Source: Candidatus Hydrogenedens sp.
Lineage (GTDB): Bacteria > Hydrogenedentota > Hydrogenedentia > Hydrogenedentales > Hydrogenedentaceae
DNA: 64,000 nt
Direction: 5' to 3'
NCBI GenBank assembly: GCA_049968235.1
Contig: JBMFRC010000001.1
Coordinates: forward strand, 320,001-384,000
The translations under genes were made by a program, and so were the position numbers. A model generated the notes under the pieces. The model did not search any database. It had not been told where the DNA came from and saw only the letters and a list, made by a program, of their open reading frames with translations. Each line of letters starts with the position of its first letter. Position 1 is the stretch's first letter. This document shows, in pieces, positions 2,178-15,574 of this stretch.

Positions 2178-3338
2178 TTACCCAAATACCTGTCGCATGC
2201 GGTCACAATAATAACAAATGTTATCCCATTTTGCATCAGGAGGAATGCGATGGTCTGGACAAGGGATAAAACCACCCAAATCTACCAGAGGTTTTAGTCG
2301 TTCTATCTCACGGTCAACAGCATCTTTATCGTAAAGGAATACTACTTTGTTCATTCCTCCGACGCCGCGTAAACCTTTGCCATATTTCTCTCTCCATGGA
2401 GCAATGCTTGCGTTCCATGTGCCGACCTCTATTGGAAACATGGTATTCACACCATTACGGAACCATGTTGGAATAAGGGCATCAATACAGCCATCACAAT
2501 CCAGTGAAACAATATCCAGACCATAACTGCTACATAATTCTGTAATTCTTTTATAATGAGGTCCAACCAATTCATCAAATACAGAAGGAATTACCAGCGG
2601 TCCGTTCTTAAAGCAGATGTCCTCCCAGAAATGAGCGAAATCGTATCGGGCTCCGTTCTGTAAGGCTCGTTTTGTATTCTGATAGCAAAGTTCTCCATAA
2701 GTATTAATCATCTCCTTAAACAAATCCGGGTCATCGGCATAAATATAACTTAATCCTACTACACCGGTAATATTTCGTAACGAACCTAATAAACTTCCAC
2801 AATGCAATCCATAAAGATAATCCCGTTCATTTTTTTTGAGAAATTCCTCTCCTCCTTCTCCAAAAGGTATCATTTTATCATTGACACGAACCGGCGTTTT
2901 CAGTATCCTGTCTTCATTATATTGAAGTCTTGGCAAATAATACTCTTCCCAATCCTTTCGTGCTTTCAATAGGTGGTCAAACTCTGCTGGAATAGAAACA
3001 GCCCCCGGTTTTTCAAGGACAATAACACCATCTTCGCTTTGAATCTTTCTTGAACCATCCGGCAATTCTTCAATAGTTTTTCGCTCAAATAATGGTGCTA
3101 AATGGGCATTAGGTTTAAATACTGAATAATAATTGAAATCAAAACCTAACTTTTCACTTATTACTGCATCCACAGGATTTCCATCCACCCATTCTTTCGC
3201 TTCTTCCTTTGTAATATATCCTTCTTCTGCCCATTTTGTTAATGTCTCATTCCAAAAACCAAAATGAACTATCGGTAAACGGTCATACAGTTCATATCTC
3301 AAAACCGCAAGTGTTCTTTCCCTATGTGTCATTAACAT
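2178..3338 (-). CDS. Uroporphyrinogen decarboxylase (URO-D) family protein (MtaA/CmuA-like fold; function unknown)
   Basis: 386-aa ORF. Its N-terminus MTHRERTLAVL..DRLPI and overall length/composition are typical of URO-D-like family proteins. Assignment is by recollection only, not a search. Confidence 0.5.
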   Translation of the reverse strand: MLMTHRERTLAVLRYELYDRLPIVHFGFWNETLTKWAEEGYITKEEAKEWVDGNPVDAVISEKLGFDFNYYSVFKPNAHLAPLFERKTIEELPDGSRKIQSEDGVIVLEKPGAVSIPAEFDHLLKARKDWEEYYLPRLQYNEDRILKTPVRVNDKMIPFGEGGEEFLKKNERDYLYGLHCGSLLGSLRNITGVVGLSYIYADDPDLFKEMINTYGELCYQNTKRALQNGARYDFAHFWEDICFKNGPLVIPSVFDELVGPHYKRITELCSSYGLDIVSLDCDGCIDALIPTWFRNGVNTMFPIEVGTWNASIAPWREKYGKGLRGVGGMNKVVFLYDKDAVDREIERLKPLVDLGGFIPCPDHRIPPDAKWDNICYYCDRMRQVFG

Positions 3339-3592: not shown

Positions 3593-4624
3593 TTGAAAAA
3601 AAAGTTTTTATCTGAAATAATTATTTGTTTTTGTTTTTTACTCTTATCTCTTTCTACATATGGAGATGCATTAAAGTCTGTAACTATCCGTTTTCCTGCT
3701 ATGGGAACGGAGTTTGTATTTATTATCTATCCCCCCTCCGAAGGCATGCTTGAAGAAGATATCCGCAATTTATGTGAACCTGCTATAAATGCTGTTTATA
3801 ATCTTGAGAAGCATATCAGTCATTACTTACCTGATAATGACCTTGCACGGTTAAACCAATCGGCAGGTTCAGGTATGCTTAAAGTAAACAGTGACCTTTT
3901 TGAGGTTATCCGCTGGTCTAAACGATATTGGGAACGCACAGGTGGTGCCTTTGACCCGAGTGTGGGTCCTTTGCTGGACCTATGGGGATTTTATAGAAAA
4001 AATCGAGAGGACCTTCCTTCGGATAAAGAAATTTCTGAAGCATTAAAGAAAGTAGGTATGGATAAAGTAATTATAAATGGAGACGAACAATCTGTTGGAC
4101 TAACAGTTCCCGGGATGCGTCTTGATTTTGGCGGAATAGGAAAAGGATTGGCATTAGACCGAGCAAAAACGATATTAAAAGGACAGGGAATACAATCGGG
4201 CATATTGCATTCCGGAACAAGTTCGATTGTAGCCATTGGGACACCCCCCAACCAGACAGGTTGGAAAATAGGTATCCGTTCGCCTTATAATAAAAGTGAA
4301 ACGATTGAAGAATTTATAATTAATGATGAATCACTTTCTACATCTTCCGTTTCTGAACAGTTTTTGGAACGAAAAGGCAAAAAGTTTGGTCATATATTTA
4401 ACCCGAAAACAGGTTACCCTGTAGATAATAGTATTGTGAGTGCCACAGTTATTTGCAAAACTGCAGTTGAAAGTGATGCTTTAAGCACATCGTTTTTTGT
4501 ACTTGGTATTGATAAAACACAGGAATATTGTAAAAAATTTCAGGATGTGAAAGTTTTTCTGGTATCCGAAAGTAATAAAAAATTAGATAAACAATACATA
4601 AACCTTAAACAAAGCGAGGAATAG
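3593..4624 (+). CDS. apbE: FAD:protein FMN transferase (ApbE family), secreted/lipoprotein
   Basis: Signal peptide. ApbE hallmark DFGGIGKGLALDRA. TTG start per ORF table. First gene of a tight operon, 3-nt gap to the next gene. Confidence 0.85.
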   Translation: MKKKFLSEIIICFCFLLLSLSTYGDALKSVTIRFPAMGTEFVFIIYPPSEGMLEEDIRNLCEPAINAVYNLEKHISHYLPDNDLARLNQSAGSGMLKVNSDLFEVIRWSKRYWERTGGAFDPSVGPLLDLWGFYRKNREDLPSDKEISEALKKVGMDKVIINGDEQSVGLTVPGMRLDFGGIGKGLALDRAKTILKGQGIQSGILHSGTSSIVAIGTPPNQTGWKIGIRSPYNKSETIEEFIINDESLSTSSVSEQFLERKGKKFGHIFNPKTGYPVDNSIVSATVICKTAVESDALSTSFFVLGIDKTQEYCKKFQDVKVFLVSESNKKLDKQYINLKQSEE

Positions 4625-4626
4625 CC

Positions 4627-6084
4627 ATGAAATCCAATGTCTCTCGTAGAAATTTTATCAAAACAGCAAGCACTGCCACAGGACTTATGGTAATGGCAGG
4701 AAAAGCCCCATTCTCCTATGCACTCAACGACAAAGTAAAGGTCGGTTGTGTGGGTTGTGGAGGACAGGGAAGTTTTCATATTAAAGATGGATTGATGGGT
4801 ACTTCTGATATTGTCATCACTGCGGTATGTGATGCGTATGGTCCCCATCAACGGTTAGCGGTGCAATTAGCCCAGATTTCAAATGCAGGTATTGCCCTTG
4901 AACCCGGACAGGGTCTAACCGAAGAACAACGGCAAAAGGCTCTGGCTGCATTCAAACCGAAGAGTTATTATGATTACCGTGAAATGTTAGAAAAAGAAGA
5001 ACTGGATGCAGTTGTAATTTCCACGCCACTCCATACACACTATCAAATAACTATGGATAGTTTGAGTGCCGGTAAATATGTCTTTTGTGAAAAGACTATG
5101 TGCTATGAGATTGAACAAGCACGAGACATCGTAAAGAAATGTCACGAAACAGGTAAATGGGTTCAGGTAGGACATCAACGGAGATACAATCCTTTATATA
5201 ACAAAGCCTTGATGATGATTTGGGAGGAGGGGACTATTGGTCGTATTGTTCATATTGATGCTCAATGGCACCGCAATAATGATTGGCGACGTCCGATTAA
5301 CAAAGACCATAAACTCAACTCTCAAGAAGCACGCTTCATTAAAGATTTAGAGCGATATATGAACTGGCGATTGTATAAAGAATCCTCCCGAGGCTTATTA
5401 ACAGAATTAGCAACGCACCAATTGGACATTGTTGCATGGTTCCTCGATGCTATGCCCAAACGGGTTCATGGTTGCGGTAGTCTGGATTACTGGAGAGACG
5501 GACGCGAAATTCACGATAGCATTAATATGATTTATGAATTTGATATAACCCCTGAAAATCGTGGCTACCGTGCTATTAATGCTCGCAGTAGTTATCAGGA
5601 TAAAAAGGCAATCAATCAACCTTACACAGTTCAATTAGCCTATTCCAGTATCACTGCTAATGCAAAGAAAGGATGTAATGAATTAATACAAGGTGATGAA
5701 GGGACTATTGAATTGAGTGAAGAGGGCGGAAGTTTCTATCCGGAAGCAACATCCAAAGTTTCCTGGGGCGAGTCCGGTAGTGCAGAACAAACCGCAACAG
5801 TCATCACTTCTGGTGGAACCTTAAAACTGAGTAATAAAGCCCTTCAAGAAGGCAAACCGATTGTTGTAGATAATACGCGTTCTGTTGACCAACTTCAATT
5901 TATGCGTTTTGCAAAAGATATTAAAGAAGGTGGCATTCCAAAGGCGAATCAGATGGTCGGATTACGTGCTACAATTATGGCTCTTGCAGGTTATCAGGCC
6001 ATAGAGGAAAAACGCATGGTTGAAATAGACCCGGCTCTCTACACCTTTGACTTCCCGACTCCCGACCCATCAACGGTTAGTTAA
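4627..6084 (+). CDS. Gfo/Idh/MocA family oxidoreductase with twin-arginine (TAT) signal peptide (periplasmic dehydrogenase)
   Basis: SRRNFIKTAS TAT motif. Rossmann motif KVGCVGCGGQGSFH. 485 aa. Confidence 0.85.
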   Translation: MKSNVSRRNFIKTASTATGLMVMAGKAPFSYALNDKVKVGCVGCGGQGSFHIKDGLMGTSDIVITAVCDAYGPHQRLAVQLAQISNAGIALEPGQGLTEEQRQKALAAFKPKSYYDYREMLEKEELDAVVISTPLHTHYQITMDSLSAGKYVFCEKTMCYEIEQARDIVKKCHETGKWVQVGHQRRYNPLYNKALMMIWEEGTIGRIVHIDAQWHRNNDWRRPINKDHKLNSQEARFIKDLERYMNWRLYKESSRGLLTELATHQLDIVAWFLDAMPKRVHGCGSLDYWRDGREIHDSINMIYEFDITPENRGYRAINARSSYQDKKAINQPYTVQLAYSSITANAKKGCNELIQGDEGTIELSEEGGSFYPEATSKVSWGESGSAEQTATVITSGGTLKLSNKALQEGKPIVVDNTRSVDQLQFMRFAKDIKEGGIPKANQMVGLRATIMALAGYQAIEEKRMVEIDPALYTFDFPTPDPSTVS

Positions 6085-6154
6085 CATTTTCAATTTTTAT
6101 AGAACAGATTCATATAATAAAATTATAAACATATAAAAAAGAGAAAGTGATGCC

Positions 6155-9100
6155 ATGAGTAAATCGTGGAGAAGATGTATTTCATTATTAGTTTTCACTT
6201 TGGGTTTTCTGCCATTCCTTTCTATTTCAGCAAAGGAGACAACAGAACCATTACAAAACATTATAGAAAATTATGATAAATATATAGGCAGAGACCTTGT
6301 AATTAATAATCGTGCTCCCAACGCAAAAGTCATTCGCACACTACCTCTCTCATGCCCTCCTTTCCATTTAAGGGATAAAAATGGGGATATTATTGACCCG
6401 ACAAAAAATGCGGATGGGACACCCATTGACCCCAACCTGCCGGTTCAACAGCAAGGAATTCCCAGAGCGGTAAGCACAAAACAGACATGTGGAGCATGTC
6501 ATCCTTATGACAGGATTACTCATGGTTATCATTTTCAGATGGGTCGTGATGAACTTTATCCAGATACAGACCCGAGTAGTGGCGTTCCTAAAGATAAAAG
6601 TCCCGGGTTTTTCGGGAAATGGCTCTCTCTATATCAACGGGAATTGGTAGGAAAACATTTTGAAAATCCTGAACAGGTAGATATGACTCCTTTTGACTGG
6701 ATTGTAAATTGTGGAGTATGTCATCCCGGTGGTGGACCTGCTGAATATGACCGTTCCGGTAAAAATTATGCAACGGTGAAAAAAACAAGTCCATTAGCAG
6801 GTTCTTTTGGGGATGGAGATTACCACGAATCCCCATGGGAAAAAACAGGGGTTATTGAAGCGGATTGTTTCATTTGTCACCTTGAAGATTATGAATATTC
6901 CCTTCGTGCTCAACAGATAAAAAAATGGAACTTCGAATATGCAGCAACTGCGGGTGCTGGCTTTGGTTTCGTTTGGGGCTCAACCATTGATGGACAAGAG
7001 CCCAAAGTTTACTATAACAAAAGCCTTTTCCGTGCAGATGGAACAGTGCACCTACACATTCGCCGTCCAACAGACCGTCAATGTATGTTCTGCCATGATA
7101 TGTCCAGTGTTCAGAAACGTGGAATTTCATGGCACTCTCCATATATGCAGGATGTTCACACAGAACAAGGTCTGAAATGTATTGATTGCCACCATGGTGA
7201 TATCCGCCACAATTTTGCAAAAGGAGATTCTTCTATACAAACAGTTCGCGATGATTTGGATAATACAATTTTATCCTGTAAAAAATGTCATTACCAACAG
7301 GAAAAAGGCGCCCCGTACCCCGAACATAAAGGATTACCTCCTTTACATCTGGAACGGATAGATTGTACAGCGTGCCATATAACGCATCGTCCATTCTTGC
7401 CTGTATCTATTATTGACCCATTAACAGGCAAAGCCATAACTTTACCGGAAATCCAGGATATGAATTATTGGGGAGCCTTTGAATTCGGCGGTTTTTGGGG
7501 TTGGTCGCGAAGTAGAGACGATGCAAATCTTATATTTCCTTATACCGAAGACCAATTAAAGCAGGCTAAGGAATATATTATTTCTAATGAAGACAATATT
7601 CGCAAAATGTTCAAAGAAGCATTTTTGACAGACCTGCCCGAAGGGAATATTAAAGTCGCCGATTTCATCCAGCAAAAACAGGGACTTGAAAATTCAGAAG
7701 CCCGTGGATTAATGCTGATTACATTATCCCAATTAGTCCGTCCTGCAAAAGAAGCATTCCCGGTTGTTGTTTTCCGAAATCAAGCATACTCCTACGATGC
7801 CGGGCAAATACGGGAATTAAAAACAACACCACAACCGAAACGACCCGGTGCTACTATTATCGAATCTTCTTTTGATTTAGGTAGAAGTAAACCTGATGGA
7901 AAAATCTATGCTCAGAATACTCAGGTTTCCGCATATTGGGTTTATACTGATGGGGAGGAGGTTCGTCCTGTATTGCTTAAAGACATGAAGAAGGCTTACG
8001 ACTGGTTAACATCACAAGAATATAGTTTCTCTCTTTATTCCGCACAGCCTCAGAATGGACAGACTTCTCCTGCACTTCCGGAAAATCCATTCAAACAGGC
8101 ACAACAGACAACTACAACCTCATCGGAAAATACCGGAGCATTACAATCGCAAACATCTCCTCCCTCAGATACAGCAGAACGTAAAAAGACAGCGGAAGAA
8201 GTTCGTCAAATAGCAGAGATGGAAGAAAACCTAAAATCTGCTATACAGAAAAAAATAAAGGTATATTCCACATCGGACACTCGACCATTAAAAATTTATG
8301 ACGATAACAATGATACCTTCCCCGAAGTAAATTCTCAGGAAGAAATCGGCTTGTTCGCATGGGCACTTAAACAGACTGTTCCATCGCTACGCGAAAAAGA
8401 TTTATATTACTTGAGAGGAACCACTGTTTTTCGTGTTAGTGTTAAAGGCGGAGAAAATCCTTATGACCGTGAGTTTTTAGATATGGACCGTATTGGTGAG
8501 AATAAACCTTTCATAGCCATTACGAGATACGAACAGAAAGAAGAATCCGGTGAATATAGTTGGGACAAACCGAAACAAGTTTGGAAACCTGTCGAAATAC
8601 GACTTTGTTCGCCGTATGAAGCAGAGATTGTGCAAGTTGACCCGAAGGCATATCCATCTATTATCGCTATGGCAAAACCATTAGAATGGACTGTCTCTCA
8701 TGGTGTAGAACCTGCAAGCCGTGCATACGGTGCTAAAGGTTGTACAGAGTGCCATTCAGAAAATTCTTCATTCTTCATGGGTAGTATGCTCGTAGACCCA
8801 TTTTCTGAAAACGGGACGCCCAAATATGTTCCCCTATGGCATATCTTGGGCTACGATATTTCCAACTTGAAAATAGGAGCATGGCGCGAAGGTGTATTGA
8901 AAAAATATGCCCCATGGATTGTGCTCATACAATTATTACTCATTCTTGTACACTATGTCCTTATCGGGAGAAAAGAAGGAACACCTGTTGGGAAACCTAA
9001 TGTCCTTCGTTTCCGTTTTTATGAACGAATAGCCCATGCGATTGCCATGATTAGTGTTACATTCCTGGCTATTACGGGTTTCTTCTTCCTTATGGGTCAA

Positions 9101-9601
9101 CATGACCCCTTAGGACCCTGGGCAAGGGTGTGGCATACATGGTTTGGTTATGTCGCATGTGCGGGTGTTGTATTTATCTTCTTATCCTGGGTAGCCTTCA
9201 TGTTCCCTGCTAAAGGGGATTTCCGTTGGTTATTGAAAGCAGGCGGTTATTTAGGTGGTGTTAAAGGACATGTTCCAGCGGGCAAATTTAATGCCGGGCA
9301 AAAAATCCTATTCTGGTTAGCAATACTTGCATCAGGGACCTGTGGAATAACAGGTGTTGTTATGGGACTTAATCGTGGTTTTCACTTCCCAAATCAAGAA
9401 ATATTCTATACGATACACGATATATCTGCACTGGTTATGATTCTGGTACTCATTGCTCATATTTATTTAGCCGCCTTTGTTGTCCCTCACAGTTTGCGGG
9501 CTATTTTCGGAGGAAAGGTAAGCGATATATGGGCAAAAGAACACCATTCACTCTGGGCTTTTACAGTAATTGATGAAAAAAACAATTCATCTGAACATTA
9601 A
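6155..9601 (+). CDS. Octaheme c-type cytochrome fused to a C-terminal dihaem cytochrome b (Ni/Fe-hydrogenase/FdnI-type cyt b) membrane domain; CbcL-like quinone-interacting electron conduit
   Basis: Signal peptide. Eight CxxCH motifs (CGACH, CGVCH, CFICH, CMFCH, CIDCH, CKKCH, CTACH, CTECH). S/T/Q-rich linker. C-terminal ~260 aa has 5 TM helices with His in TM1 (AHAIAM), TM2 (WHTWF) and two in TM4 (IHDIS..AHIYL), the classic bis-haem b ligation pattern. Confidence 0.8.
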   Translation: MSKSWRRCISLLVFTLGFLPFLSISAKETTEPLQNIIENYDKYIGRDLVINNRAPNAKVIRTLPLSCPPFHLRDKNGDIIDPTKNADGTPIDPNLPVQQQGIPRAVSTKQTCGACHPYDRITHGYHFQMGRDELYPDTDPSSGVPKDKSPGFFGKWLSLYQRELVGKHFENPEQVDMTPFDWIVNCGVCHPGGGPAEYDRSGKNYATVKKTSPLAGSFGDGDYHESPWEKTGVIEADCFICHLEDYEYSLRAQQIKKWNFEYAATAGAGFGFVWGSTIDGQEPKVYYNKSLFRADGTVHLHIRRPTDRQCMFCHDMSSVQKRGISWHSPYMQDVHTEQGLKCIDCHHGDIRHNFAKGDSSIQTVRDDLDNTILSCKKCHYQQEKGAPYPEHKGLPPLHLERIDCTACHITHRPFLPVSIIDPLTGKAITLPEIQDMNYWGAFEFGGFWGWSRSRDDANLIFPYTEDQLKQAKEYIISNEDNIRKMFKEAFLTDLPEGNIKVADFIQQKQGLENSEARGLMLITLSQLVRPAKEAFPVVVFRNQAYSYDAGQIRELKTTPQPKRPGATIIESSFDLGRSKPDGKIYAQNTQVSAYWVYTDGEEVRPVLLKDMKKAYDWLTSQEYSFSLYSAQPQNGQTSPALPENPFKQAQQTTTTSSENTGALQSQTSPPSDTAERKKTAEEVRQIAEMEENLKSAIQKKIKVYSTSDTRPLKIYDDNNDTFPEVNSQEEIGLFAWALKQTVPSLREKDLYYLRGTTVFRVSVKGGENPYDREFLDMDRIGENKPFIAITRYEQKEESGEYSWDKPKQVWKPVEIRLCSPYEAEIVQVDPKAYPSIIAMAKPLEWTVSHGVEPASRAYGAKGCTECHSENSSFFMGSMLVDPFSENGTPKYVPLWHILGYDISNLKIGAWREGVLKKYAPWIVLIQLLLILVHYVLIGRKEGTPVGKPNVLRFRFYERIAHAIAMISVTFLAITGFFFLMGQHDPLGPWARVWHTWFGYVACAGVVFIFLSWVAFMFPAKGDFRWLLKAGGYLGGVKGHVPAGKFNAGQKILFWLAILASGTCGITGVVMGLNRGFHFPNQEIFYTIHDISALVMILVLIAHIYLAAFVVPHSLRAIFGGKVSDIWAKEHHSLWAFTVIDEKNNSSEH

Positions 9602-9659
9602 TTTCCTTTACAATTAAACGTTATAACACATTATTTATCATTAACATTGGGAGTATCTT

Positions 9660-10226
9660 ATGAAAATCCTGTCTTTATTGGGAAGCCCTAAAAAAAATGG
9701 GAACTCCGCACATGCATTGAACTATCTCGAAGAACAACTGAAACAACAGAACCATGAAATAAAACATATCCATGTCTCTTCCTTCCTTATTGAAGGGTGT
9801 AGGGAATGTTATTGGTGTAAACAGGAGGGGAATTTTTTGTGTTGCAATAACGATGATGCAATACCTATCTTAAAAGGAATGCTTGATTCAGATGCTATTA
9901 TCTTTTCTGCACCGACCTTTTGTTGGGGTTTTCCCGCACAAATGAAAGCCCTTTTCGACCGCATGTTCTGCCTGATTTCATGGAAAGAAGGAGATAGTGA
10001 AAATAAATCTTTGCTGAAAGGGAAAACTATGGCACTCATTGTAACTGCAGGGGGTGAAGTGAAAAATAATGCAGAACTTTTAGGAATTGCCTTCAACAAT
10101 ATGGCAGAATTTATGAATTGTAAATCTGCAGGGATAGTTTATATTGCCCCCTGCGAAGGTATTCATTCTATCAATGATAAGATAAAAAAACAATTAGACA
10201 ACTTAGCCCAAAATCTGAGTATCTAA
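9660..10226 (+). CDS. Flavodoxin-like fold NAD(P)H-dependent FMN reductase / iron-sulfur flavoprotein-like protein
   Basis: LLGSPKKNGNS N-terminus typical of the NADPH-dependent FMN reductase / multimeric flavodoxin fold. Cys cluster CRECYWC...CC. Last gene of the operon. Confidence 0.55.
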   Translation: MKILSLLGSPKKNGNSAHALNYLEEQLKQQNHEIKHIHVSSFLIEGCRECYWCKQEGNFLCCNNDDAIPILKGMLDSDAIIFSAPTFCWGFPAQMKALFDRMFCLISWKEGDSENKSLLKGKTMALIVTAGGEVKNNAELLGIAFNNMAEFMNCKSAGIVYIAPCEGIHSINDKIKKQLDNLAQNLSI

Positions 10227-10466
10227 TATCTTTAATTGTAAAATAGATCTGCCATTACTTTGAAAAAAAAAGAATATTGTTATCATTTCTGCTGTTAGTA
10301 TGAGGCCCACGAAACGGATGTAATTGTATCTACAACCACATTGATATTACATTGCAATTATAAATTTAATTTTTATATCTTCTCACCCCCCTATATCTAC
10401 CATTCGATTATAGATAGCACTAATGGTATTTTCTATGAATACCTATGCTCATAGCCCTTGAGTATG

Positions 10467-10507
10467 CAAGCCCTCCAGTTTCCCAGAGGGCTTGCATAAT
10501 ATTTTTT
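10467..10507 (+). terminator. Rho-independent terminator between convergent genes
   Basis: 11-bp stem tgcaagccctc/gagggcttgca with a 10-nt loop, followed by TAATATTTTTT. Confidence 0.45.
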
Positions 10508-10523: not shown

Positions 10524-11759
10524 TTATCTTTCGTTAGAATTATTCTTCAGGATTCCCCTTACCTTGCTATTTTGTGTCAATAACAAGAAGGAAAGAATTA
10601 CTAAAACAAATATATCACTCAGATGTGAATTTGTTGAAGGTCCACCGGAACCGCAAGATACAATGAAAGTTCTCTTGGCTCCTTTACTCATTACCAGTAT
10701 AACCTCTGTCCCCTTAACAACTTCAGTTCCAACAGAGGGCTCGGTTCGGATTATGCTCCCTTTCGGTACATCTTTGCTATATTCTTCTTTAATCGTTGCG
10801 GATACCTTAAGTCCTGCAGATGTTAGTATTTGAATAGCCTCGTCTTTAGATTTTCCTTTAACATCCGGCACTTTTACTTTCTGAATAGGTTCTCCTTCAT
10901 TACTTCCTTCGGGAGTACCTTCAACTACACCTTCAGGGGTTCCTTCTGGACTACCTTCCTGATGACCTTCGACTGTTCCTTCGCCTTCTGCATTCCCTTC
11001 GACAGAACCTTCTGTGCTTCCTTCTATACTACCCTCTTGCATACCTTCAGGAATGCCTTCTGTTGAACCTTCTTGTGCTCCTTCTCCTTCGAGAGTGCCT
11101 TCTATTATACCTTCTTGCTGTCCTTCGGTGATTCCTTCAACATTTCCTTCGCCTTCTGCAGGCGGTTCTAATGGAAGTATTTTAGGTGCTTTCGGGTCAT
11201 CAAACATGGGAACATAAGCAAATATATCGTTGATTTGGACTTGAGCCAAATTTATTTGTGCATCCCCGGTTTGTTTCATACGGAACAATACTTTGAGCAA
11301 TTCAAGACTTCCCTTAGCACCGATATTTTCAGAACTGCTTCCTGCAATTTTCAGACTACCTGTAGCATTTGCATTAGAGTTATAACTTAACTTCATATTG
11401 CTAACTGCATCACCTAATACGACCTCCATTACCTCCGCATATTCTTTATCGAAATTAATTACAAGAGAGAAGCCCGCTATATTGGATACATTGTTCATTA
11501 CCACAGATACCCACTTTTCAGAGCCTGCTGTTCCAGATAAGTAATCTGTTAATTGGGCATAAACAGTTGCATCCTCTTTTTCTACTCGTGCAAGGGTAGA
11601 CTCCGCAGACAAAGAACCTGCATCTGCCAGCCATTTTAAGTCGCTTATATAGTCTTCATAACTCTTTGCGTCTATTTTCTTTCCTGTTGGCATTACATCT
11701 TTACCTGTTAACCAGCGTTGTAGCATGCTGGAGTCAGCACTATCCACCATTCCATCCAT
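10524..11759 (-). CDS. C-terminal fragment of a disrupted giant surface protein: dockerin-like start, cohesin-like domain, xEGxxEG acidic repeat, PASTA domain, C-terminal Gly/Ser-rich + hydrophobic + basic tail
   Basis: ORF begins inside a dockerin repeat (GDFNMDGMVDSADSSMLQRWL continues upstream in another frame). Homologous to 11846-14179 and to the intact 20173-25416 protein. Tail SCGSGGP...FVLVILSFLLL...KVRG. Confidence 0.55.
   Translation of the reverse strand: MDGMVDSADSSMLQRWLTGKDVMPTGKKIDAKSYEDYISDLKWLADAGSLSAESTLARVEKEDATVYAQLTDYLSGTAGSEKWVSVVMNNVSNIAGFSLVINFDKEYAEVMEVVLGDAVSNMKLSYNSNANATGSLKIAGSSSENIGAKGSLELLKVLFRMKQTGDAQINLAQVQINDIFAYVPMFDDPKAPKILPLEPPAEGEGNVEGITEGQQEGIIEGTLEGEGAQEGSTEGIPEGMQEGSIEGSTEGSVEGNAEGEGTVEGHQEGSPEGTPEGVVEGTPEGSNEGEPIQKVKVPDVKGKSKDEAIQILTSAGLKVSATIKEEYSKDVPKGSIIRTEPSVGTEVVKGTEVILVMSKGAKRTFIVSCGSGGPSTNSHLSDIFVLVILSFLLLTQNSKVRGILKNNSNER
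10870..11170 (-). repeat. Imperfect 12-nt-periodic coding tandem repeat (nnnnccttc on the + strand) encoding xEGxxEG acidic linker
   Basis: Visible periodicity of ccttc every 12 nt. Protein EGNVEGITEGQQEGIIEGTLEGEGAQEGSTEG... Similar tracts at 12955-13135, 13558-13700 and 20335-20445. Confidence 0.7.
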
Positions 11760-11845
11760 ATTAAAGTCACCGGATTTCTGAATACAGGGATTTCCTCCTG
11801 TGTTATTTGTCCAATAATCCAGGATATATTGTGTGTCTAAATCGT

Positions 11846-14179
11846 TTACTTCATATTATTATCCGCATCACCAAAGACACATCCGTCTGTAACACACAAT
11901 TGTCCATCTTCTAATATAAGTTCTAACGGTTGTGTAAATGAGGAGATCACATCGTATAGGCGAACTCCATTGCCGGCTCCATCATCCGGAATAAGGTGTA
12001 ACTGTCCACATAAAGGACCTAAAACAGATAAATTGGGTTTAGCAATAATATTAAACAGAGTCCCAGCACCATACAAACTTTCTGCTTTTATTCCTGCTGC
12101 AGCAATTCGAACATTAATTGTCTCACCTTGAGGTATAGCTAATGATGCTATCATCATCCCACTAGTAATACCTGATGGTAATACGGTGATAGTCTCGGGG
12201 TCTGATATTAAGGCAGATGGCAATTCCGAATCAATCTGTATGGATGTTGCTGAAACATCATAAACTGATTTTGAGTTCACGGGAATACGAATAAGTATTT
12301 CATCAAGATTTTGTGGATTCGGTTGTAGCCAATAAAGACTGGTATCTGTTATATTAACCTGTTCAGGGAAGAATACGGTTAAGTATTGTCCACGAACCGT
12401 CTCCGAAGCATCTGATAACACAGTATAACGGTCCACATCACTTACAGCCTGTATGGCATATTGGTAGTAAATCCCTAATTCTACCGCATTATCTATATAT
12501 TCTAATGTTGTTAGATAACCTTCATAAGGCAACCTGTCCGGATTATTCAATCGTTGCCAATCTGTCAATGAATTCCCATCTCTATCTACTGTCCTGCGAT
12601 ACACATTATAGCCAGCAATATTATACTCAGGATTTGTATCCCATGCTACGCGAACACTATGCGGTCCACTATAAGGACGTGGACGGAATGATTTTTGAAT
12701 ATTTCCGGGGTCTAATTCAACAAGCAATTCAGCATTGGTATCCACAGGTTGTATCGTTTTGGGCTTATATTTCCGCTTTGTAAAGTCCAAACGATATGGC
12801 GGTTGCAATGTACCTAAATCTGGAAAGGCAAAACGTCCATTATTATCTGTTAGCACAGGTTCATTCCCTTTACTATCTGCAACGCTAATTTGGACTAATA
12901 CACCGGGAATCGGGCTTTTGCTTATACTATTTATCACCTGACCACGAACACCTGCATATTCGCCTTCGAATGTCCCTTCCGTAGTTCCTTCAATAGTTCC
13001 CTCCGGAATTCCTTCAATTACTCCTTCAGGTATTCCTTCAACATTACCATCCATAGGACCTTCGGGAATCCCTTCGATAACACCTTCAATTGTTCCTTCC
13101 GTTACACCTTCAGGTGTCCCTTCTTCACAGGGTCCTGTGGAAACCCAGATATCCACAGGTATTTCTATTGTATTCTCATAATTACAAGTGCCTTCTACAG
13201 CCATAGGTTCTTGCAAAGCGATGTATCCAGCGGGATAATTATTATCACATACCTCAACAATCTGTCCTAATAATAATCCATAATCTACAATTAATTGTTG
13301 TGCCTCTTCCAATGACATACCTATAACATTAGGAACTATGGTACAGGGTCCACAAGAGATAATCAGGTCAACGATTGTTCCAATCTCTACTGTATTTCCA
13401 CCACCGGGTATTTGTTCAACGACTGTGCCTGCCGGGTATTGGTCATTGCACATCTCAATAATAGCACCAATATTTAGGTTGGCATTACTAATTTCTCCCG
13501 TTGCTTCCTGTTGCGGAAGTCCTATCATATATGGAACTATAGTTGTTTCAATAGCACCTTCGCCTTCAGACATCCCTTCGCCTTCAGACATCCCTTCGCC
13601 TTCGAATAGCCCTTCTGAACTGCCTTCAATACTACCTTCGGTAGTTCCTTCAAATGAACCTTCTCCTTCTACAATACCTTCAACTACACCGGGTTCAGGC
13701 TCTCCAATAACAGGATTGAGTGGGTCTTCAAATCTTGGGGTATGTCCATATTTATCGTGTATCTGAACCTGAACAAATTTAATATCGCCTTTTCCATCTC
13801 GCTTAATCTTAAACTTTACTTTTACCAATTCAACTTCTCCAGAGGTTCCCAACTCTTCTTCACCTCCCGCACTTATCCGCAAACTGCTACTGGAACCAGA
13901 ATTTACTACTTCATAATTCCATCGCCATATATTTGCTGCATTCACAGGTTTTACCTGCTTTACTTCAGCAAAATCACTATCATAATTCAAGACAAATTCA
14001 AATCCTGCCACATTTGTTACTTCATCAGCCACAATGGCAATCCATTTATCACTGCCTGCAGACCCTTCTAATGTGCCACGGAACCACACCTTTACTCCCA
14101 CATTATTCTTTTCTAATTTGGCTAACTTTGCTTGTGCGGATAGGGAACCATGGGAAGCTAACCATTTCAATTCATCCAC
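11846..14179 (-). CDS. Central fragment of the disrupted giant surface protein: cohesin-like, EG repeats, 2 PASTA-like, EG repeats, carboxypeptidase-regulatory-like, FN3, dockerin start
   Basis: 777-aa ORF. Its frame stays open upstream of the annotated Met into a dockerin repeat, interrupted only by an in-frame TGA at 14270-14272. The C-terminal GDADNNMK* continues as a dockerin after a frameshift near 11840. Confidence 0.55.
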   Translation of the reverse strand: MDELKWLASHGSLSAQAKLAKLEKNNVGVKVWFRGTLEGSAGSDKWIAIVADEVTNVAGFEFVLNYDSDFAEVKQVKPVNAANIWRWNYEVVNSGSSSSLRISAGGEEELGTSGEVELVKVKFKIKRDGKGDIKFVQVQIHDKYGHTPRFEDPLNPVIGEPEPGVVEGIVEGEGSFEGTTEGSIEGSSEGLFEGEGMSEGEGMSEGEGAIETTIVPYMIGLPQQEATGEISNANLNIGAIIEMCNDQYPAGTVVEQIPGGGNTVEIGTIVDLIISCGPCTIVPNVIGMSLEEAQQLIVDYGLLLGQIVEVCDNNYPAGYIALQEPMAVEGTCNYENTIEIPVDIWVSTGPCEEGTPEGVTEGTIEGVIEGIPEGPMDGNVEGIPEGVIEGIPEGTIEGTTEGTFEGEYAGVRGQVINSISKSPIPGVLVQISVADSKGNEPVLTDNNGRFAFPDLGTLQPPYRLDFTKRKYKPKTIQPVDTNAELLVELDPGNIQKSFRPRPYSGPHSVRVAWDTNPEYNIAGYNVYRRTVDRDGNSLTDWQRLNNPDRLPYEGYLTTLEYIDNAVELGIYYQYAIQAVSDVDRYTVLSDASETVRGQYLTVFFPEQVNITDTSLYWLQPNPQNLDEILIRIPVNSKSVYDVSATSIQIDSELPSALISDPETITVLPSGITSGMMIASLAIPQGETINVRIAAAGIKAESLYGAGTLFNIIAKPNLSVLGPLCGQLHLIPDDGAGNGVRLYDVISSFTQPLELILEDGQLCVTDGCVFGDADNNMK

Positions 14180-14182
14180 ATA

Positions 14183-15574
14183 TCCTTTGCCCGCTGTTGA
14201 GATTTTTGGAGGTGTAATACTTTTTCTTGCTAACCAACGCTGAATTAAACTGGAATCCGCACTATCTACTCACCCATCGAGATTAATATCTCCTGATTTT
14301 AAGATGCATGAATGTGCACCTACTTTCCTAACCCAATAATCCAGAACAAATTGCTCATCTGTACTATCAATTACACTATCATTATTTACATCTCCATGAA
14401 TACATCCCCCTGAAACGCATAATCGTCCATCCACAAGAAGCACAGGTAAGGTTCTGTCTGATTTTGAATTACATTATATAACCGAACACCATTTCCCACA
14501 CCATCATCAGGAACTAAATGTAATAAACCACACTCATTCAAAAGATTTAAGCGAGGTTTTGCAAGAATATTAAATAATACTCCAGAACCATATAAACTCT
14601 CTGCTATCCCACCAGCAGATGATATACGAACATTAATTTTATCTCCATTTCTAACGGCATTGGCACTTATATTCATACCTGCGGTAATACCTGAGGGCTC
14701 CACCGTAATTGTGTCGGGATTGAGCAATAAACTTCTGGGCAATTCCGCATCGATTTGTATGGAAGTAGTGGAAACATCATATACAGCCTCTGAATTAACA
14801 GGTATTCTTACTAATTGTTGTTATGGATTTTGAGGGTCTCTTTCCCAGAGAAACATACCGCTATCTTTATAATTTACTTGTTCCGGGAAGAAAATAGTTA
14901 AAAATTGCCCTACTACATCTTCCGAAGCATCCGAAAGATTGGAATAACGGTCGACATCACTAACTGCCTGTATTGCATATTGATAGCGAATACCCGGTTG
15001 TATTGCGGTATCTGTATATTCTAATCCTCCAATATATCCTTCATAAGGAGGTAATCCCGGATTATTCAATTTTGCCCAAATAGAACTTCCTACTGTCCGA
15101 CGATATACATTATAGCCAGCAATGTTATATTCAGGATTTGTATCCCATCCAATACGGACACTATTGGTTCCTCCATAAACACGAGGAATGGTGGGTCTCT
15201 GAATATTTCCCGGCTCTATTTCCGCAAAAAGTTCTGCACCCGAATCAACAGGTTGAACCGTTTTCGGTTTAAATTTATTCTTTGTAAAATCCAGACGATA
15301 GGGAGGTAATAAACTCCCTAAATCGGAAAATTCAAATAGCCCATTTTTCATCTGTTAAAACAGGCTCTGTACTCTGTTTATCTGCAATACTTATTCCAAC
15401 AAGTACTCCCTCTACAGGTTTTTTGCTAATACTGTTAATAACCTGTCCCTTAACACTAAAGACTTTTTCTGCTACTGCTTGATTAGTAATAGCACATGCT
15501 ATTACTAATAGTGATATGCTCAAAAATATATTATTTTTTACAAAAATTGACTTTGCCCTACTTTTTGCATTCAT
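14183..15574 (-). pseudogene. N-terminal portion of the same giant surface protein (signal peptide, CarbopepD_reg-like, FN3, cohesin-like, dockerin), broken into ORFs 15332-15574, 14821-15351 and 14386-14742 by a frameshift and in-frame stops
   Basis: Paralog alignment with 11846-14179 (e.g. YRLDFTKNKFKPKTVQPVD vs YRLDFTKRKYKPKTIQPVD). TAA at 14821-14823 sits in-frame between two ORFs (DPQNP*QQLVRIP vs paralog NPQNLDEILIRIP). Frameshift in an A/T run at ~15341-15349. Frameshift at ~14430-14450. TGA at 14270-14272 where the paralog has ATG (DG*VD vs DGMVD). Confidence 0.55.

What the first reader, a model, noticed from the sequence alone, without database searches (positions are those of the whole stretch)
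3593..10226. Periplasmic redox operon: ApbE + TAT Gfo/Idh/MocA dehydrogenase + octaheme cyt c / dihaem cyt b fusion + flavodoxin-like protein
Four co-directional genes with 3-70 nt gaps. Seen in sequence: an ApbE flavin transferase, a TAT-exported NAD(P)-Rossmann dehydrogenase, a multiheme c-cytochrome carrying its own quinone-interacting b-type membrane anchor, and an FMN-reductase/Isf-like protein. From established knowledge: ApbE flavinylates extracytoplasmic proteins, and Gfo/Idh/MocA enzymes are periplasmic sugar/inositol dehydrogenases. Inference: this looks like a dedicated periplasmic substrate-to-quinone (or reverse) electron-transfer module. I do not recognise a characterised system with this composition. 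The Gfo protein contains TSGGT, a near-match to the ApbE flavinylation motif [S/T]GA[S/T].
Basis: partly seen in the sequence, partly recalled or inferred. Interest (0 to 1): 0.75.

Follow-up and report, generated by a model that had tools for sequence, protein, structure and literature searches.

The report
Flavin-tagged periplasmic dehydrogenase wired to quinone
A conserved three-gene module in Hydrogenedentota pairs an exported NAD-type sugar dehydrogenase with its own flavin-attaching enzyme and a membrane cytochrome, which suggests an undescribed way for periplasmic dehydrogenases of this family to pass electrons to the respiratory chain.

Summary
The four ORFs exist exactly as described: ApbE, a TAT-signal Gfo/Idh/MocA dehydrogenase, an 8-heme cytochrome c fused to an FdnI-like di-heme cytochrome b, and an Isf-like flavoprotein.

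The fusion is not an assembly chimera. It is identical in two MAGs and full-length in more than 60 homologues.

Only the first three genes form a conserved unit. It persists in Hydrogenedentota down to 37% cytochrome identity. The flavoprotein gene occurs only in the closest relatives.

It is a conserved site: T/S in 121 of 121 homologues. It aligns in register with the canonical ApbE motif D-G-x-S-G-A-T found in more distant members of this Gfo branch. It is lost (VDGRRAVV) in an Armatimonadota clade that also lacks apbE. apbE lies directly upstream of such Gfo genes in Hydrogenedentota, Planctomycetota, Verrucomicrobiota and Bacteroidota.

Best reading: ApbE puts FMN on Thr398 of the exported dehydrogenase. 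The FMN relays electrons to the CbcL-type cytochrome, which reduces quinone in an Fdn-N-like redox loop. Paralogous modules carry a YceI-like quinone-binding protein instead of the cytochrome.

I found no paper linking ApbE to Gfo/Idh/MocA. All mechanism is inferred from sequence.

The parts
3593..4624 (+). ApbE-family FAD:protein FMN transferase. It has an N-terminal hydrophobic signal (residues 1-25, nt 3593-3667) and is therefore predicted to be periplasmic. Its stop codon lies 2 nt before the Gfo start.
   Evidence: Pfam ApbE 4.7e-75 over 37-322. N-terminus MKKKFLSEIIICFCFLLLSLSTYG. An apbE gene sits directly upstream of the Gfo gene at 60 of the Gfo genes in related loci.
4627..6084 (+). 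TAT-exported Gfo/Idh/MocA NAD(P)-dependent dehydrogenase and proposed ApbE substrate. TAT signal at nt 4627-4725 (SRRNFIK). Rossmann GxGxxG at nt 4753-4770. It also has D69, the E155-K156-T157 motif and H264/D267.
   Evidence: Pfam and NCBIfam hits. AF2 model pLDDT 89.6. Top PDB folds are Zymomonas GFOR, glycoside 3-dehydrogenases and levoglucosan dehydrogenase. Invariant residues.
5743..5883 (+). Insertion (Gfo residues 373-419) between the last beta-strand and the C-terminal helices. It carries the putative flavinylation motif T-S-G-G-T (nt 5806-5820). The proposed FMN-linked residue is Thr398 (codon 5818-5820).
   Evidence: Position 398 is T in 91 and S in 30 of 121 homologues; G396 is present in 113 of 121. 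In the PVC clade G and T are present in 120 of 120. The site aligns in register with canonical VDGVSGAT. pLDDT is 58-67 for residues 371-410, so this is a flexible loop.
6155..9601 (+). CbcL-like membrane cytochrome. Parts in order: Sec signal (nt 6155-6232); periplasmic heme cluster 1-7 (nt 6488-7378); expanded middle alpha/beta domain (nt 7412-8704); heme 8 (nt 8741-8755); an extra TM helix with invariant H933 (nt 8858-8965); FdnI-like 4-TM di-heme cytochrome b (nt 9002-9556).
9660..10226 (+). Cytoplasmic Isf-like FMN_red/flavodoxin-fold protein with the motif C47-x2-C50-x2-C53-x7-C61. It is co-directional but lineage-specific, so it is probably an accessory or a passenger and not part of the core module.
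   Evidence: Pfam FMN_red 5e-24. No signal peptide. Present downstream only in L001, L002 and L011-L015, and absent in more distant module-bearing loci.
10466..10495 (.). 10-bp GC-rich inverted repeat (GCAAGCCCTC...GAGGGCTTGC) followed by ATAATATTTTTTG. It lies between the end of the + strand gene set and the convergent - strand gene, and is a possible bidirectional terminator.
   Evidence: Read directly from the sequence. The consensus scan did not flag it because the loop is 10 nt.

Best explanation
The conserved unit is apbE, gfo and a c8+b2 cytochrome. I read it as a respiratory, periplasmic carbohydrate/polyol dehydrogenase.

Proposed sequence of events (all inferred):
1. The Gfo/Idh/MocA enzyme folds in the cytoplasm around a non-dissociable NAD(P) and is exported by TAT, as Zymomonas GFOR is.
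2. The co-translated ApbE attaches FMN by a phosphoester bond to Thr398, which lies in a flexible surface loop.
3. The substrate reduces the bound NAD(P).
4. The tethered FMN takes the hydride and releases single electrons to the eight c-hemes of the CbcL-like cytochrome, probably docked through its expanded middle domain.
5. The electrons cross the membrane through the two b-hemes and reduce menaquinone at the cytoplasmic face. This would be an Fdn-N-type, charge-separating redox loop.

Shown here: the domain identities, the conserved synteny, the conservation of the site and its homology to the canonical motif, and the conserved heme ligands.

Inferred only: flavinylation itself, NAD retention, the substrate class, the direction of electron flow and the docking.
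For: 1. Synteny. apbE-gfo-cyt is kept across Hydrogenedentota while the flanking genes differ completely (L003, L004, L006, L008). It was found at 18 loci, counting the Gfo gene at each one.

2. apbE-gfo adjacency extends well beyond the cytochrome loci. It is seen at 60 Gfo genes in all, including loci from Verrucomicrobiota, Planctomycetota, Bacteroidota and Rhodothermaeota, and in many metagenome lineages including human gut. Four database ORFs carry ApbE and Gfo in a single reading frame.

3. The Gfo protein is the only partner with an ApbE-like motif. The cytochrome family has none conserved. The alternative YceI partner has none.

4. The site itself. The hydroxyl residue is invariant. 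At least 14 distant 50%-cluster representatives carry the exact D-G-x-[ST]-G-A-[ST] motif. The one tested in the profile alignment (P0393-type, with others) lines up on Thr398. L035 has the full DTLSGAT.

5. A natural loss control. Armatimonadota homologues (L078-L090) lack apbE and have VDGRRAVV at that place. The 2x2 table of motif against adjacent apbE is 50 / 7 / 6 / 14.

6. Tolerance of the motif. Mutating the Asp has only minor effects, and changes at G or A reduce flavinylation without abolishing it (PMC12052999).

8. Paralogous modules replace the cytochrome with a membrane-anchored YceI-like protein. YceI is a ubiquinone-8-binding fold (PMC8981238). This points to quinone as the common electron sink.

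9. A split version exists in L151: gfo, then a 7-heme cytochrome c, then a separate cytochrome b.
Against: There is no biochemical evidence of any kind.

The window's motif (V-I-T-S-G-G-T) lacks the Asp and has Gly where the consensus has Ala. The PVC clade has Lys there. Such a strongly conserved loop could instead be structural or substrate-binding.

The loop is modelled with low confidence. I could not read model coordinates, so the distance from Thr398 to the nicotinamide is unknown.

The clade with the canonical motif has no adjacent apbE (L099, L102, L104, L149). The L151-type Gfo next to a cytochrome has no motif at all. FMN is therefore not obligatory for every Gfo-cytochrome pairing.

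Some apbE genes next to gfo have no signal peptide (L091, L092). In those organisms flavinylation would have to precede TAT export.

Only six conserved distal histidines were found for eight c-hemes, and the heme domain resembles an octaheme reductase. The cytochrome could therefore have a catalytic heme of its own.
Confidence: 0.6

Rival explanations
1. ApbE does not modify the Gfo protein covalently. It acts as a periplasmic flavin-trafficking enzyme or FAD pyrophosphatase that supplies non-covalent FMN, or it modifies a target encoded elsewhere such as Rnf or Nqr. On this reading the conserved S-G-x-T loop is a structural or substrate-binding element of this Gfo subfamily.
For: The motif departs from D-x-x-[ST]-G-A-[ST]. 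Loop confidence is low. Treponema Ftp/ApbE is an FAD pyrophosphatase (PMC4767422 abstract). The canonical-motif clade has no adjacent apbE.
Against: apbE and gfo are translationally coupled and adjacent across four or more phyla. The site is in register with the exact canonical motif. The site and apbE are lost together in Armatimonadota. Neither the cytochrome nor the YceI partner has a motif.
Confidence: 0.2
2. The module runs in reverse. The CbcL-like cytochrome oxidises menaquinol, as proposed for Geobacter CbcL. It then delivers electrons outward, either to the flavinylated Gfo protein acting as a periplasmic reductase or to a catalytic heme in its own octaheme domain.
Against: Moving electrons from menaquinol to NAD(P) is strongly uphill (established redox potentials). 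Neighbouring genes in related loci are carbohydrate-catabolic: LacI, SSF symporter, GH98, FGGY kinase, sulfatase, fucosidase. The closest structures are sugar-oxidising enzymes. The YceI variant has no hemes at all.
Confidence: 0.12
3. The unit is the four-gene operon the first reader proposed. The cytoplasmic Isf-like flavoprotein would be the cytoplasmic end of a transmembrane electron path through the b-hemes.
For: The fourth gene is co-directional with a 58-nt gap and there is no obvious terminator before it. It is conserved in the closest relatives, L011-L015.
Against: It is absent downstream of the module in all more distant loci (L003, L004, L006, L008, L016-L031). FdnI-type cytochromes deliver electrons to quinone, not to soluble proteins.
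Confidence: 0.05

Closest known systems
CbcL / MtrH / MtoC inner-membrane cytochromes (Geobacter sulfurreducens CbcL and relatives)
   Same: N-terminal periplasmic multiheme c domain fused to a C-terminal HydC/FdnI-like di-heme b membrane domain. The family is reported from 15 phyla with 3-23 heme motifs (PMC6295460). Shorter relatives of the window protein (P0094, P0097, P0104) share the 7+1 heme layout.
   Different: The window subfamily has a middle domain about 250 aa longer. It is always preceded by apbE-gfo, whereas the shorter forms are not. The proposed direction is donor-to-quinone rather than quinol oxidation for extracellular electron transfer. Direct sequence comparison with Geobacter CbcL itself was not done.
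E. coli formate dehydrogenase-N (FdnGHI) redox loop
   Different: There is no molybdoenzyme and no FeS subunit. The electron input is a multiheme c domain fed by a Gfo-type dehydrogenase. One extra TM helix is present.
Zymomonas mobilis glucose-fructose oxidoreductase (GFOR)
   Same: It is the best structural match (1evj, 1rye). It is TAT-exported with non-dissociable NADP (as cited in PMC8121099).
   Different: GFOR re-oxidises its cofactor with a second sugar in a ping-pong reaction. It has no ApbE partner, no S-G-x-T insertion and no cytochrome partner. Sequence identity is only about 15%.
ApbE-flavinylated extracytosolic electron-transfer proteins (NqrC/RnfG FMN_bind domains, DUF2271, DUF3570, flavinylated fumarate/urocanate reductases)
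   Same: A dedicated apbE is encoded beside an exported redox protein carrying an [S/T]GA[S/T]-like site, and the system is linked to a membrane electron-transfer component (PMC8238504, PMC11334425).
   Different: The candidate substrate is an NAD-Rossmann Gfo/Idh/MocA dehydrogenase, a fold not listed among ApbE substrates in those surveys or in the 2025 review. No FMN_bind, DUF2271 or DUF3570 domain is present.
Periplasmic glycoside 3-dehydrogenases (Bacteroides BT2158 family; cytochrome c-dependent LacABC/ThuAB)
   Same: Oxidation of sugars in the periplasm. BT2158 is a TAT-signal Gfo-family enzyme whose electron acceptor is still unidentified (PMC8121099 Discussion).
   Different: The window protein scores 76 bits against NF058561, whose cut-off is 750, so it is not a member. 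LacABC and ThuAB are FAD enzymes, not NAD-Rossmann enzymes.

Membership tests
ApbE flavin transferase (PF02424) | Full-length match to the ApbE family model | tested here: met
   253 bits, cut-off 25.6, profile positions 1-265 of 266. The E. coli-type equivalog NF007774 scores only 152 bits against a cut-off of 498, so it is a family member but not that orthologue.
ApbE flavin transferase (PF02424) | Transfers FMN from FAD to a Ser/Thr of a target protein | not testable with these tools
   Requires biochemistry.
ApbE substrate (flavinylation motif D-x-x-[S/T]-G-A-[S/T]) | Seven-residue motif ending in the modified Thr/Ser (PMC12052999) | tested here: inconclusive
   The window has V-I-T-S-G-G-T. 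The S, G and terminal T match. The Asp is absent and Ala is replaced by Gly. The site aligns in register with exact D-G-V-S-G-A-T in distant homologues, and the terminal hydroxyl residue is invariant.
ApbE substrate domains FMN_bind / DUF2271 / DUF3570 | Pfam match to one of the known flavinylated domains | tested here: not met
   None of the four proteins has such a hit at E <= 0.01.
Gfo/Idh/MocA oxidoreductase | N-terminal NAD(P) Rossmann domain plus C-terminal alpha/beta domain | tested here: met
   PF01408 73.6 bits, PF22725 41.4 bits and PF02894 38.7 bits, all above their cut-offs. GxGxxG, D69, K156 and H264 are conserved. The fold matches GFOR and inositol dehydrogenases.
Periplasmic GFOR-like enzyme | Twin-arginine signal peptide | tested here: met
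   TIGR01409 20.2 bits, cut-off 16.7. R7, R8 and F10 are at least 90% conserved.
Periplasmic GFOR-like enzyme | Non-dissociable NAD(P) cofactor | not testable with these tools
   Inferred from TAT export and the absence of a periplasmic NAD pool.
Glycoside 3-dehydrogenase BT_2158 family (NF058561) / inositol 2-dehydrogenase (TIGR04380) | Score above the curated equivalog cut-off | tested here: not met
   76 bits against 750, and 89.7 bits against 355.
CbcL/MtrH/MtoC cytochromes | Multiheme c domain at the N-terminus fused to a HydC/FdnI-like di-heme b membrane domain (PMC6295460) | tested here: met
   Eight CXXCH motifs followed by PF01292/TIGR01583 at residues 950-1134. Homology to Geobacter CbcL itself was not tested.
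Formate dehydrogenase gamma subunit (FdnI, TIGR01583) | Model score above cut-off and four heme-ligand histidines | tested here: met
   128.5 bits against 115.85. H961, H994, H1088 and H1102 align with FdnI H18, H57, H155 and H169.
Formate dehydrogenase gamma subunit (FdnI, TIGR01583) | Partnered with FdnG/FdnH catalytic subunits | tested here: not met
   No molybdopterin or FeS subunit genes were seen among the annotated genes of the module region of the window or in any related locus. The database name 'formate dehydrogenase subunit gamma' is a domain-level mis-annotation.
Iron-sulfur flavoprotein (Isf) | FMN_red fold plus a compact CX2CX2CX4-7C cluster motif | tested here: inconclusive
   FMN_red 85 bits. 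C47-x2-C50-x2-C53-x7-C61 read from the sequence. The motif definition is recalled from memory and was not checked against a model.

The most novel reading that the evidence does not exclude
A large, unrecognised class of TAT-exported Gfo/Idh/MocA dehydrogenases carries two cofactors: a non-dissociable NAD(P) and an ApbE-installed covalent FMN on a mobile loop. The FMN converts hydride transfer into single-electron transfer. It passes the electrons to the quinone pool through interchangeable adaptors, either a CbcL-like cytochrome or a YceI-like quinone-binding protein. Clades that kept the canonical motif use the housekeeping ApbE, and clades with a diverged motif carry their own co-evolved ApbE. 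This would explain how periplasmic NAD-type sugar dehydrogenases are re-oxidised in Hydrogenedentota, the PVC phyla, Bacteroidota and gut bacteria.
Probability: 0.5. Interest if true: 0.85.

Novelty: new variant of a known kind. Interest (0 to 1): 0.75.

Why it matters
TAT-exported Gfo/Idh/MocA enzymes are common in polysaccharide-degrading bacteria, and the periplasm has no NAD pool. For Bacteroides BT2158 the electron acceptor is explicitly unknown: the authors propose 'another as yet unidentified sugar' (PMC8121099).

A covalent FMN installed by a dedicated ApbE would give such enzymes a route into the respiratory chain. It would also make periplasmic sugar oxidation energy-conserving through an Fdn-N-like redox loop.

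It would add a new protein fold, an NAD-Rossmann dehydrogenase, to the list of ApbE substrates. It would also give CbcL-type cytochromes a defined electron donor outside metal respiration.

The family is large. There are 673 representatives of 50%-identity clusters at E <= 1e-30, and more than 1,400 and more than 1,500 90%-identity clusters in two clades. It reaches human gut metagenomes.

The hypothesis can be tested with a simple co-expression and T-to-A mutant experiment.

Tried and rejected
- Cytochrome as the ApbE target. Rejected: there is no conserved [ST]G[AGS][ST] in 65 full-length homologues, only sporadic hits.
- YceI-like partner as the target. Rejected: no motif in 25 sequences.
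- L076 782-aa ORF as an ApbE-Gfo fusion. Rejected: Pfam shows only Gfo domains, so the long ORF is an artefact of ORF calling in GC-rich DNA.
- Chimeric assembly of the cytochrome. Rejected.
- Promoter and terminator consensus scan. Uninformative: counts were near shuffle expectation.
- Genomic context of the canonical-motif protein P0393. The contigs are too short to judge.
- Profile search against PDB to place the insertion. The C-terminal alignment was too weak to define the loop position precisely.
- Literature searches for ApbE with Gfo, MocA, GFOR, inositol dehydrogenase or glycoside 3-dehydrogenase, and for Hydrogenedentes with multiheme. Nothing relevant was found. The eLife 2021 supplement lists one incidental, apparently cytoplasmic-size (369 aa) Gfo gene near an apbE, labelled 'OTHER'.
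- The rest of the window (16-64 kb) holds surface and housekeeping genes with no obvious link to the module.
Full report
**Observation.** The region holds four co-directional ORFs at exactly the stated coordinates, with gaps of 2, 70 and 58 nt.
- The first is a full-length ApbE (PF02424, 253 bits) with a hydrophobic N-terminal signal.
- The second is a 485-aa Gfo/Idh/MocA protein with a twin-arginine signal. TIGR01409 scores above its cut-off, and both family domains are present.
- The third (1148 aa) has a Sec signal and eight CXXCH motifs. Seven lie between residues 112 and 408 and one is at 863. Its C-terminal domain passes the curated cut-off of the formate-dehydrogenase gamma model.
- The fourth is a 188-aa FMN_red/flavodoxin-fold protein with no signal peptide. 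It has a C-x2-C-x2-C-x7-C motif of the iron-sulfur-flavoprotein type.

G+C content is even across the block.

**The fusion is real.** The identical 1148-aa protein is encoded on contigs of two separate NCBI MAGs. More than 60 homologues of 1000-1240 aa share the architecture at 37-93% identity. Sources that name them call them Candidatus Hydrogenedentes/Hydrogenedentota. The annotation 'formate dehydrogenase subunit gamma' reflects only the C-terminal domain.

**The membrane domain.** It aligns with E. coli FdnI (1kqf_C, E 2.5e-22). All four heme-ligand histidines are kept: H961, H994, H1088 and H1102 correspond to FdnI H18, H57, H155 and H169. All four are invariant or at least 90% conserved.

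**Known architecture.** A multiheme c domain in front of a HydC/FdnI-like b domain is the described layout of Geobacter CbcL and the CbcL/MtrH/MtoC group (PMC6295460). Shorter relatives of the window protein (720-900 aa; Abyssobacteria, Desulfobacterales and others) share the 7+1 heme layout. Their spacer between hemes 7 and 8 is only 185-215 aa, against about 460 aa here. They are not next to apbE or gfo (L009, L010).

**What is conserved.** In four loci taken at 51%, 45%, 39% and 37% cytochrome identity the order apbE-gfo-cytochrome is intact, while every flanking gene differs. A scan of one genome per GTDB species gave 80 loci around Gfo homologues. I called ORFs and searched them with the window proteins. 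Counting Gfo genes across these and the earlier loci, 18 have apbE-gfo-cytochrome.

The Isf-like gene follows only in the closest relatives (L011-L015, Gfo identity 88% or more). It is not part of the conserved unit. The divergent URO-D-like gene upstream (2178-3338) is also only sporadically associated.

**The wider pattern is apbE-gfo.** apbE lies directly upstream of the Gfo homologue, often overlapping it. This holds at 60 Gfo genes, including many without the cytochrome. It also holds outside the phylum, in Verrucomicrobiota (L070, L071), Planctomycetota (L075, L077), Bacteroidota (L080) and Rhodothermaeota (L062). Two long contigs, L091 and L092, show the same pairing among sulfatase, fucosidase, symporter and sugar-isomerase-like genes.

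Where the cytochrome is missing, the gene after gfo most often encodes a membrane-anchored protein with a Pro/Ala/Thr-rich linker and a YceI domain (PF04264). There are 17-25 such loci. YceI-like domains bind polyisoprenoids, including ubiquinone-8 (PMC8981238). Two different adaptors therefore point to quinone as the sink.

An independent arrangement exists in metagenome locus L151. It has gfo, then a separate 7-heme cytochrome c, then a separate cytochrome b.

**The flavinylation site.**
- In 121 homologues position 398 is Thr (91) or Ser (30) without exception, and G396 is present in 113.
- In 120 PVC/Bacteroidota homologues the sequence is T-[SA]-G-K-T-L, with G and T invariant.
- Some Hydrogenedentota paralogues have SGAT, and one has the full D-T-L-S-G-A-T.
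- A profile search of 1.84 billion cluster representatives found 673 relatives at E <= 1e-30. At least 14 of the top 150 carry exactly D-G-x-[ST]-G-A-[ST]. That is the consensus defined for ApbE substrates (PMC12052999).
- In L-INS-i alignments the Thr of VDGVSGAT falls in the same column as Thr398.
- Thirteen Armatimonadota/Fimbriimonadales loci have no apbE within 7 kb. They read VDGRRAVV at that place.
- Motif against adjacent apbE gives 50 (both), 14 (neither), 7 and 6. Related sequences are not independent, so this is descriptive only.

Neither the cytochrome family nor the YceI partners have a conserved motif. Four database ORFs contain ApbE and Gfo domains in one frame. One of them keeps an internal TAT signal, so these may be merged gene calls rather than true fusions.

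The Gfo model is confident overall (pLDDT 89.6). Residues 371-410 score only 58-67. That fits a mobile, exposed insertion between the last beta-strand and the C-terminal helices.

**A complication and a possible explanation.** Metagenome loci of the canonical-motif clade that have 6-kb flanks carry no adjacent apbE (L099, L102, L104, L149). Clades with diverged motifs (TGAS, TGPT, GGKS, AGTS, AGPS, WAGAT) do. Many of these come from human gut metagenomes.

One reading is that a canonical site can be served by the cell's general ApbE, while a diverged site needs a co-evolved, co-encoded enzyme. This is a hypothesis. The L151-type Gfo has no motif at all, so a flavin is not needed in every Gfo-cytochrome pairing.

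**Mechanism proposed.** The enzyme keeps the Rossmann GxGxxG, the acidic residue after beta-2, the E-K-T motif and the His/Asp pair typical of the family. Its nearest structures are GFOR, glycoside 3-dehydrogenases, levoglucosan dehydrogenase and inositol dehydrogenases. It is below the cut-off of every curated equivalog.

TAT export implies a bound cofactor, as in GFOR (cited in PMC8121099). A bound NAD(P)H cannot reduce hemes directly in one-electron steps. A flavin is the usual converter from two-electron to one-electron transfer. I therefore propose this path:
1. substrate to NAD(P);
2. NAD(P)H to FMN on Thr398;
3. FMN to the eight c-hemes;
4. c-hemes to the periplasmic-side b-heme (H994/H1088);
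5. then to the cytoplasmic-side b-heme (H961/H1102);
6. then to menaquinone.

By analogy with Fdn-N this moves charge across the membrane. Domain identities, synteny, site conservation and heme ligands are shown. Everything else in the path is inference.

**Rivals.**
- ApbE may not modify Gfo covalently.
- The system may run from quinol outward. The octaheme-reductase-like fold, and only six conserved distal histidines for eight hemes, leave room for a catalytic heme.
- The Isf-like protein may take part, though its narrow distribution argues against a core role.

**Novelty.** Full-text searches of PMC and bioRxiv found no paper that links ApbE or flavinylation with Gfo/Idh/MocA, GFOR, inositol dehydrogenase or glycoside 3-dehydrogenase. 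The two genomic surveys of flavinylation and the 2025 ApbE review do not list this fold, multiheme cytochromes or FdnI-type cytochromes as partners.

Each component belongs to a known family. The pairing and the candidate substrate are new. I rate it a new variant of a known kind, with interest 0.75.

Noticed in passing
L027:8585-9433, L029:8634-9479, L034:8592-9383, L035:8632-9414, L036:5889-6776 and about 20 more: In paralogous apbE-gfo modules without the cytochrome, the next gene encodes a signal-anchored protein with a Pro/Ala/Thr-rich linker and a YceI (PF04264) domain. It has no heme motif and no flavinylation motif. It may be a quinone-binding adaptor.
   Followed up: partly
L034:4590-7007: An 805-aa ORF joins an Nramp metal-transporter domain (residues 43-409) to ApbE (494-778) in one reading frame. 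Similarly long apbE ORFs occur in L031, L044, L051, L053, L054, L056 and L074. ApbE is metal-dependent, so this may be a functional fusion.
   Followed up: partly
P0408, P0439, P0450, P0508: Single ORFs contain ApbE followed by Gfo domains. P0450 has a TAT signal in the middle (306-323), so these may be merged gene calls rather than true fusions.
   Followed up: partly
L099, L102, L104, L149 (metagenome loci): Gfo homologues with the exact canonical DGVSGAT motif have no apbE within 6 kb. Clades with diverged motifs do have one. This suggests dedicated ApbE enzymes accompany non-canonical sites.
   Followed up: partly
L138:5986-11382; also L115-L118, L121, L127, L164: Loci that include several human gut metagenome contigs carry, in order: an apbE-type Gfo (motif LPFAGTS), a second Gfo distantly related to the BT_2158 glycoside 3-dehydrogenase family (285 bits, cut-off 750), a 451-aa ORF, and apbE.
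   Followed up: partly
L151:1017-4952: A split arrangement: a TAT Gfo without the motif, then a separate 7-heme cytochrome c (643 aa), then a separate 180-aa cytochrome b. An apbE lies on the opposite strand 2 kb away.
   Followed up: partly
window 8951-8953 (Cyt H933) and conserved His set: An invariant histidine sits in the extra TM helix near its cytoplasmic end. Only six conserved non-CXXCH histidines (H126, H335, H352, H391, H398, H849) are available as distal ligands for eight c-hemes. One or two hemes may therefore have other ligands or an open site.
   Followed up: no
L091:6139-6996, L092:6193-7011: apbE genes next to gfo in PVC/Bacteroidota-type genomes are short (272-285 aa) and have no signal peptide. 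Flavinylation there would have to occur in the cytoplasm before TAT export.
   Followed up: no
window 14386-15574 (- strand): Three short overlapping ORFs (118, 176 and 80 aa) are pieces of a paralogue of the 777-aa protein at 11846-14179. This is a frameshifted copy, either a pseudogene or a sequencing error. The same breaks appear in the gene calls of L001.
   Followed up: no
window 10524-14179 and 20173-25416 (- strand): Large predicted surface proteins with PASTA and cohesin-like domains. The two at 10524-14179 have long E-G-x-x-E-G repeat tracts. The 1747-aa protein at 20173-25416 also has GLUG and EF-hand domains. They are unrelated to the redox module.
   Followed up: no
window 2178-3338 (- strand): A divergently transcribed URO-D-like gene (weak Pfam hit, 1.7e-4). 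It recurs next to the module in the closest relatives (L012-L014), and a URO-D gene lies just downstream of the module in L004/L005. Its function is unknown.
   Followed up: no
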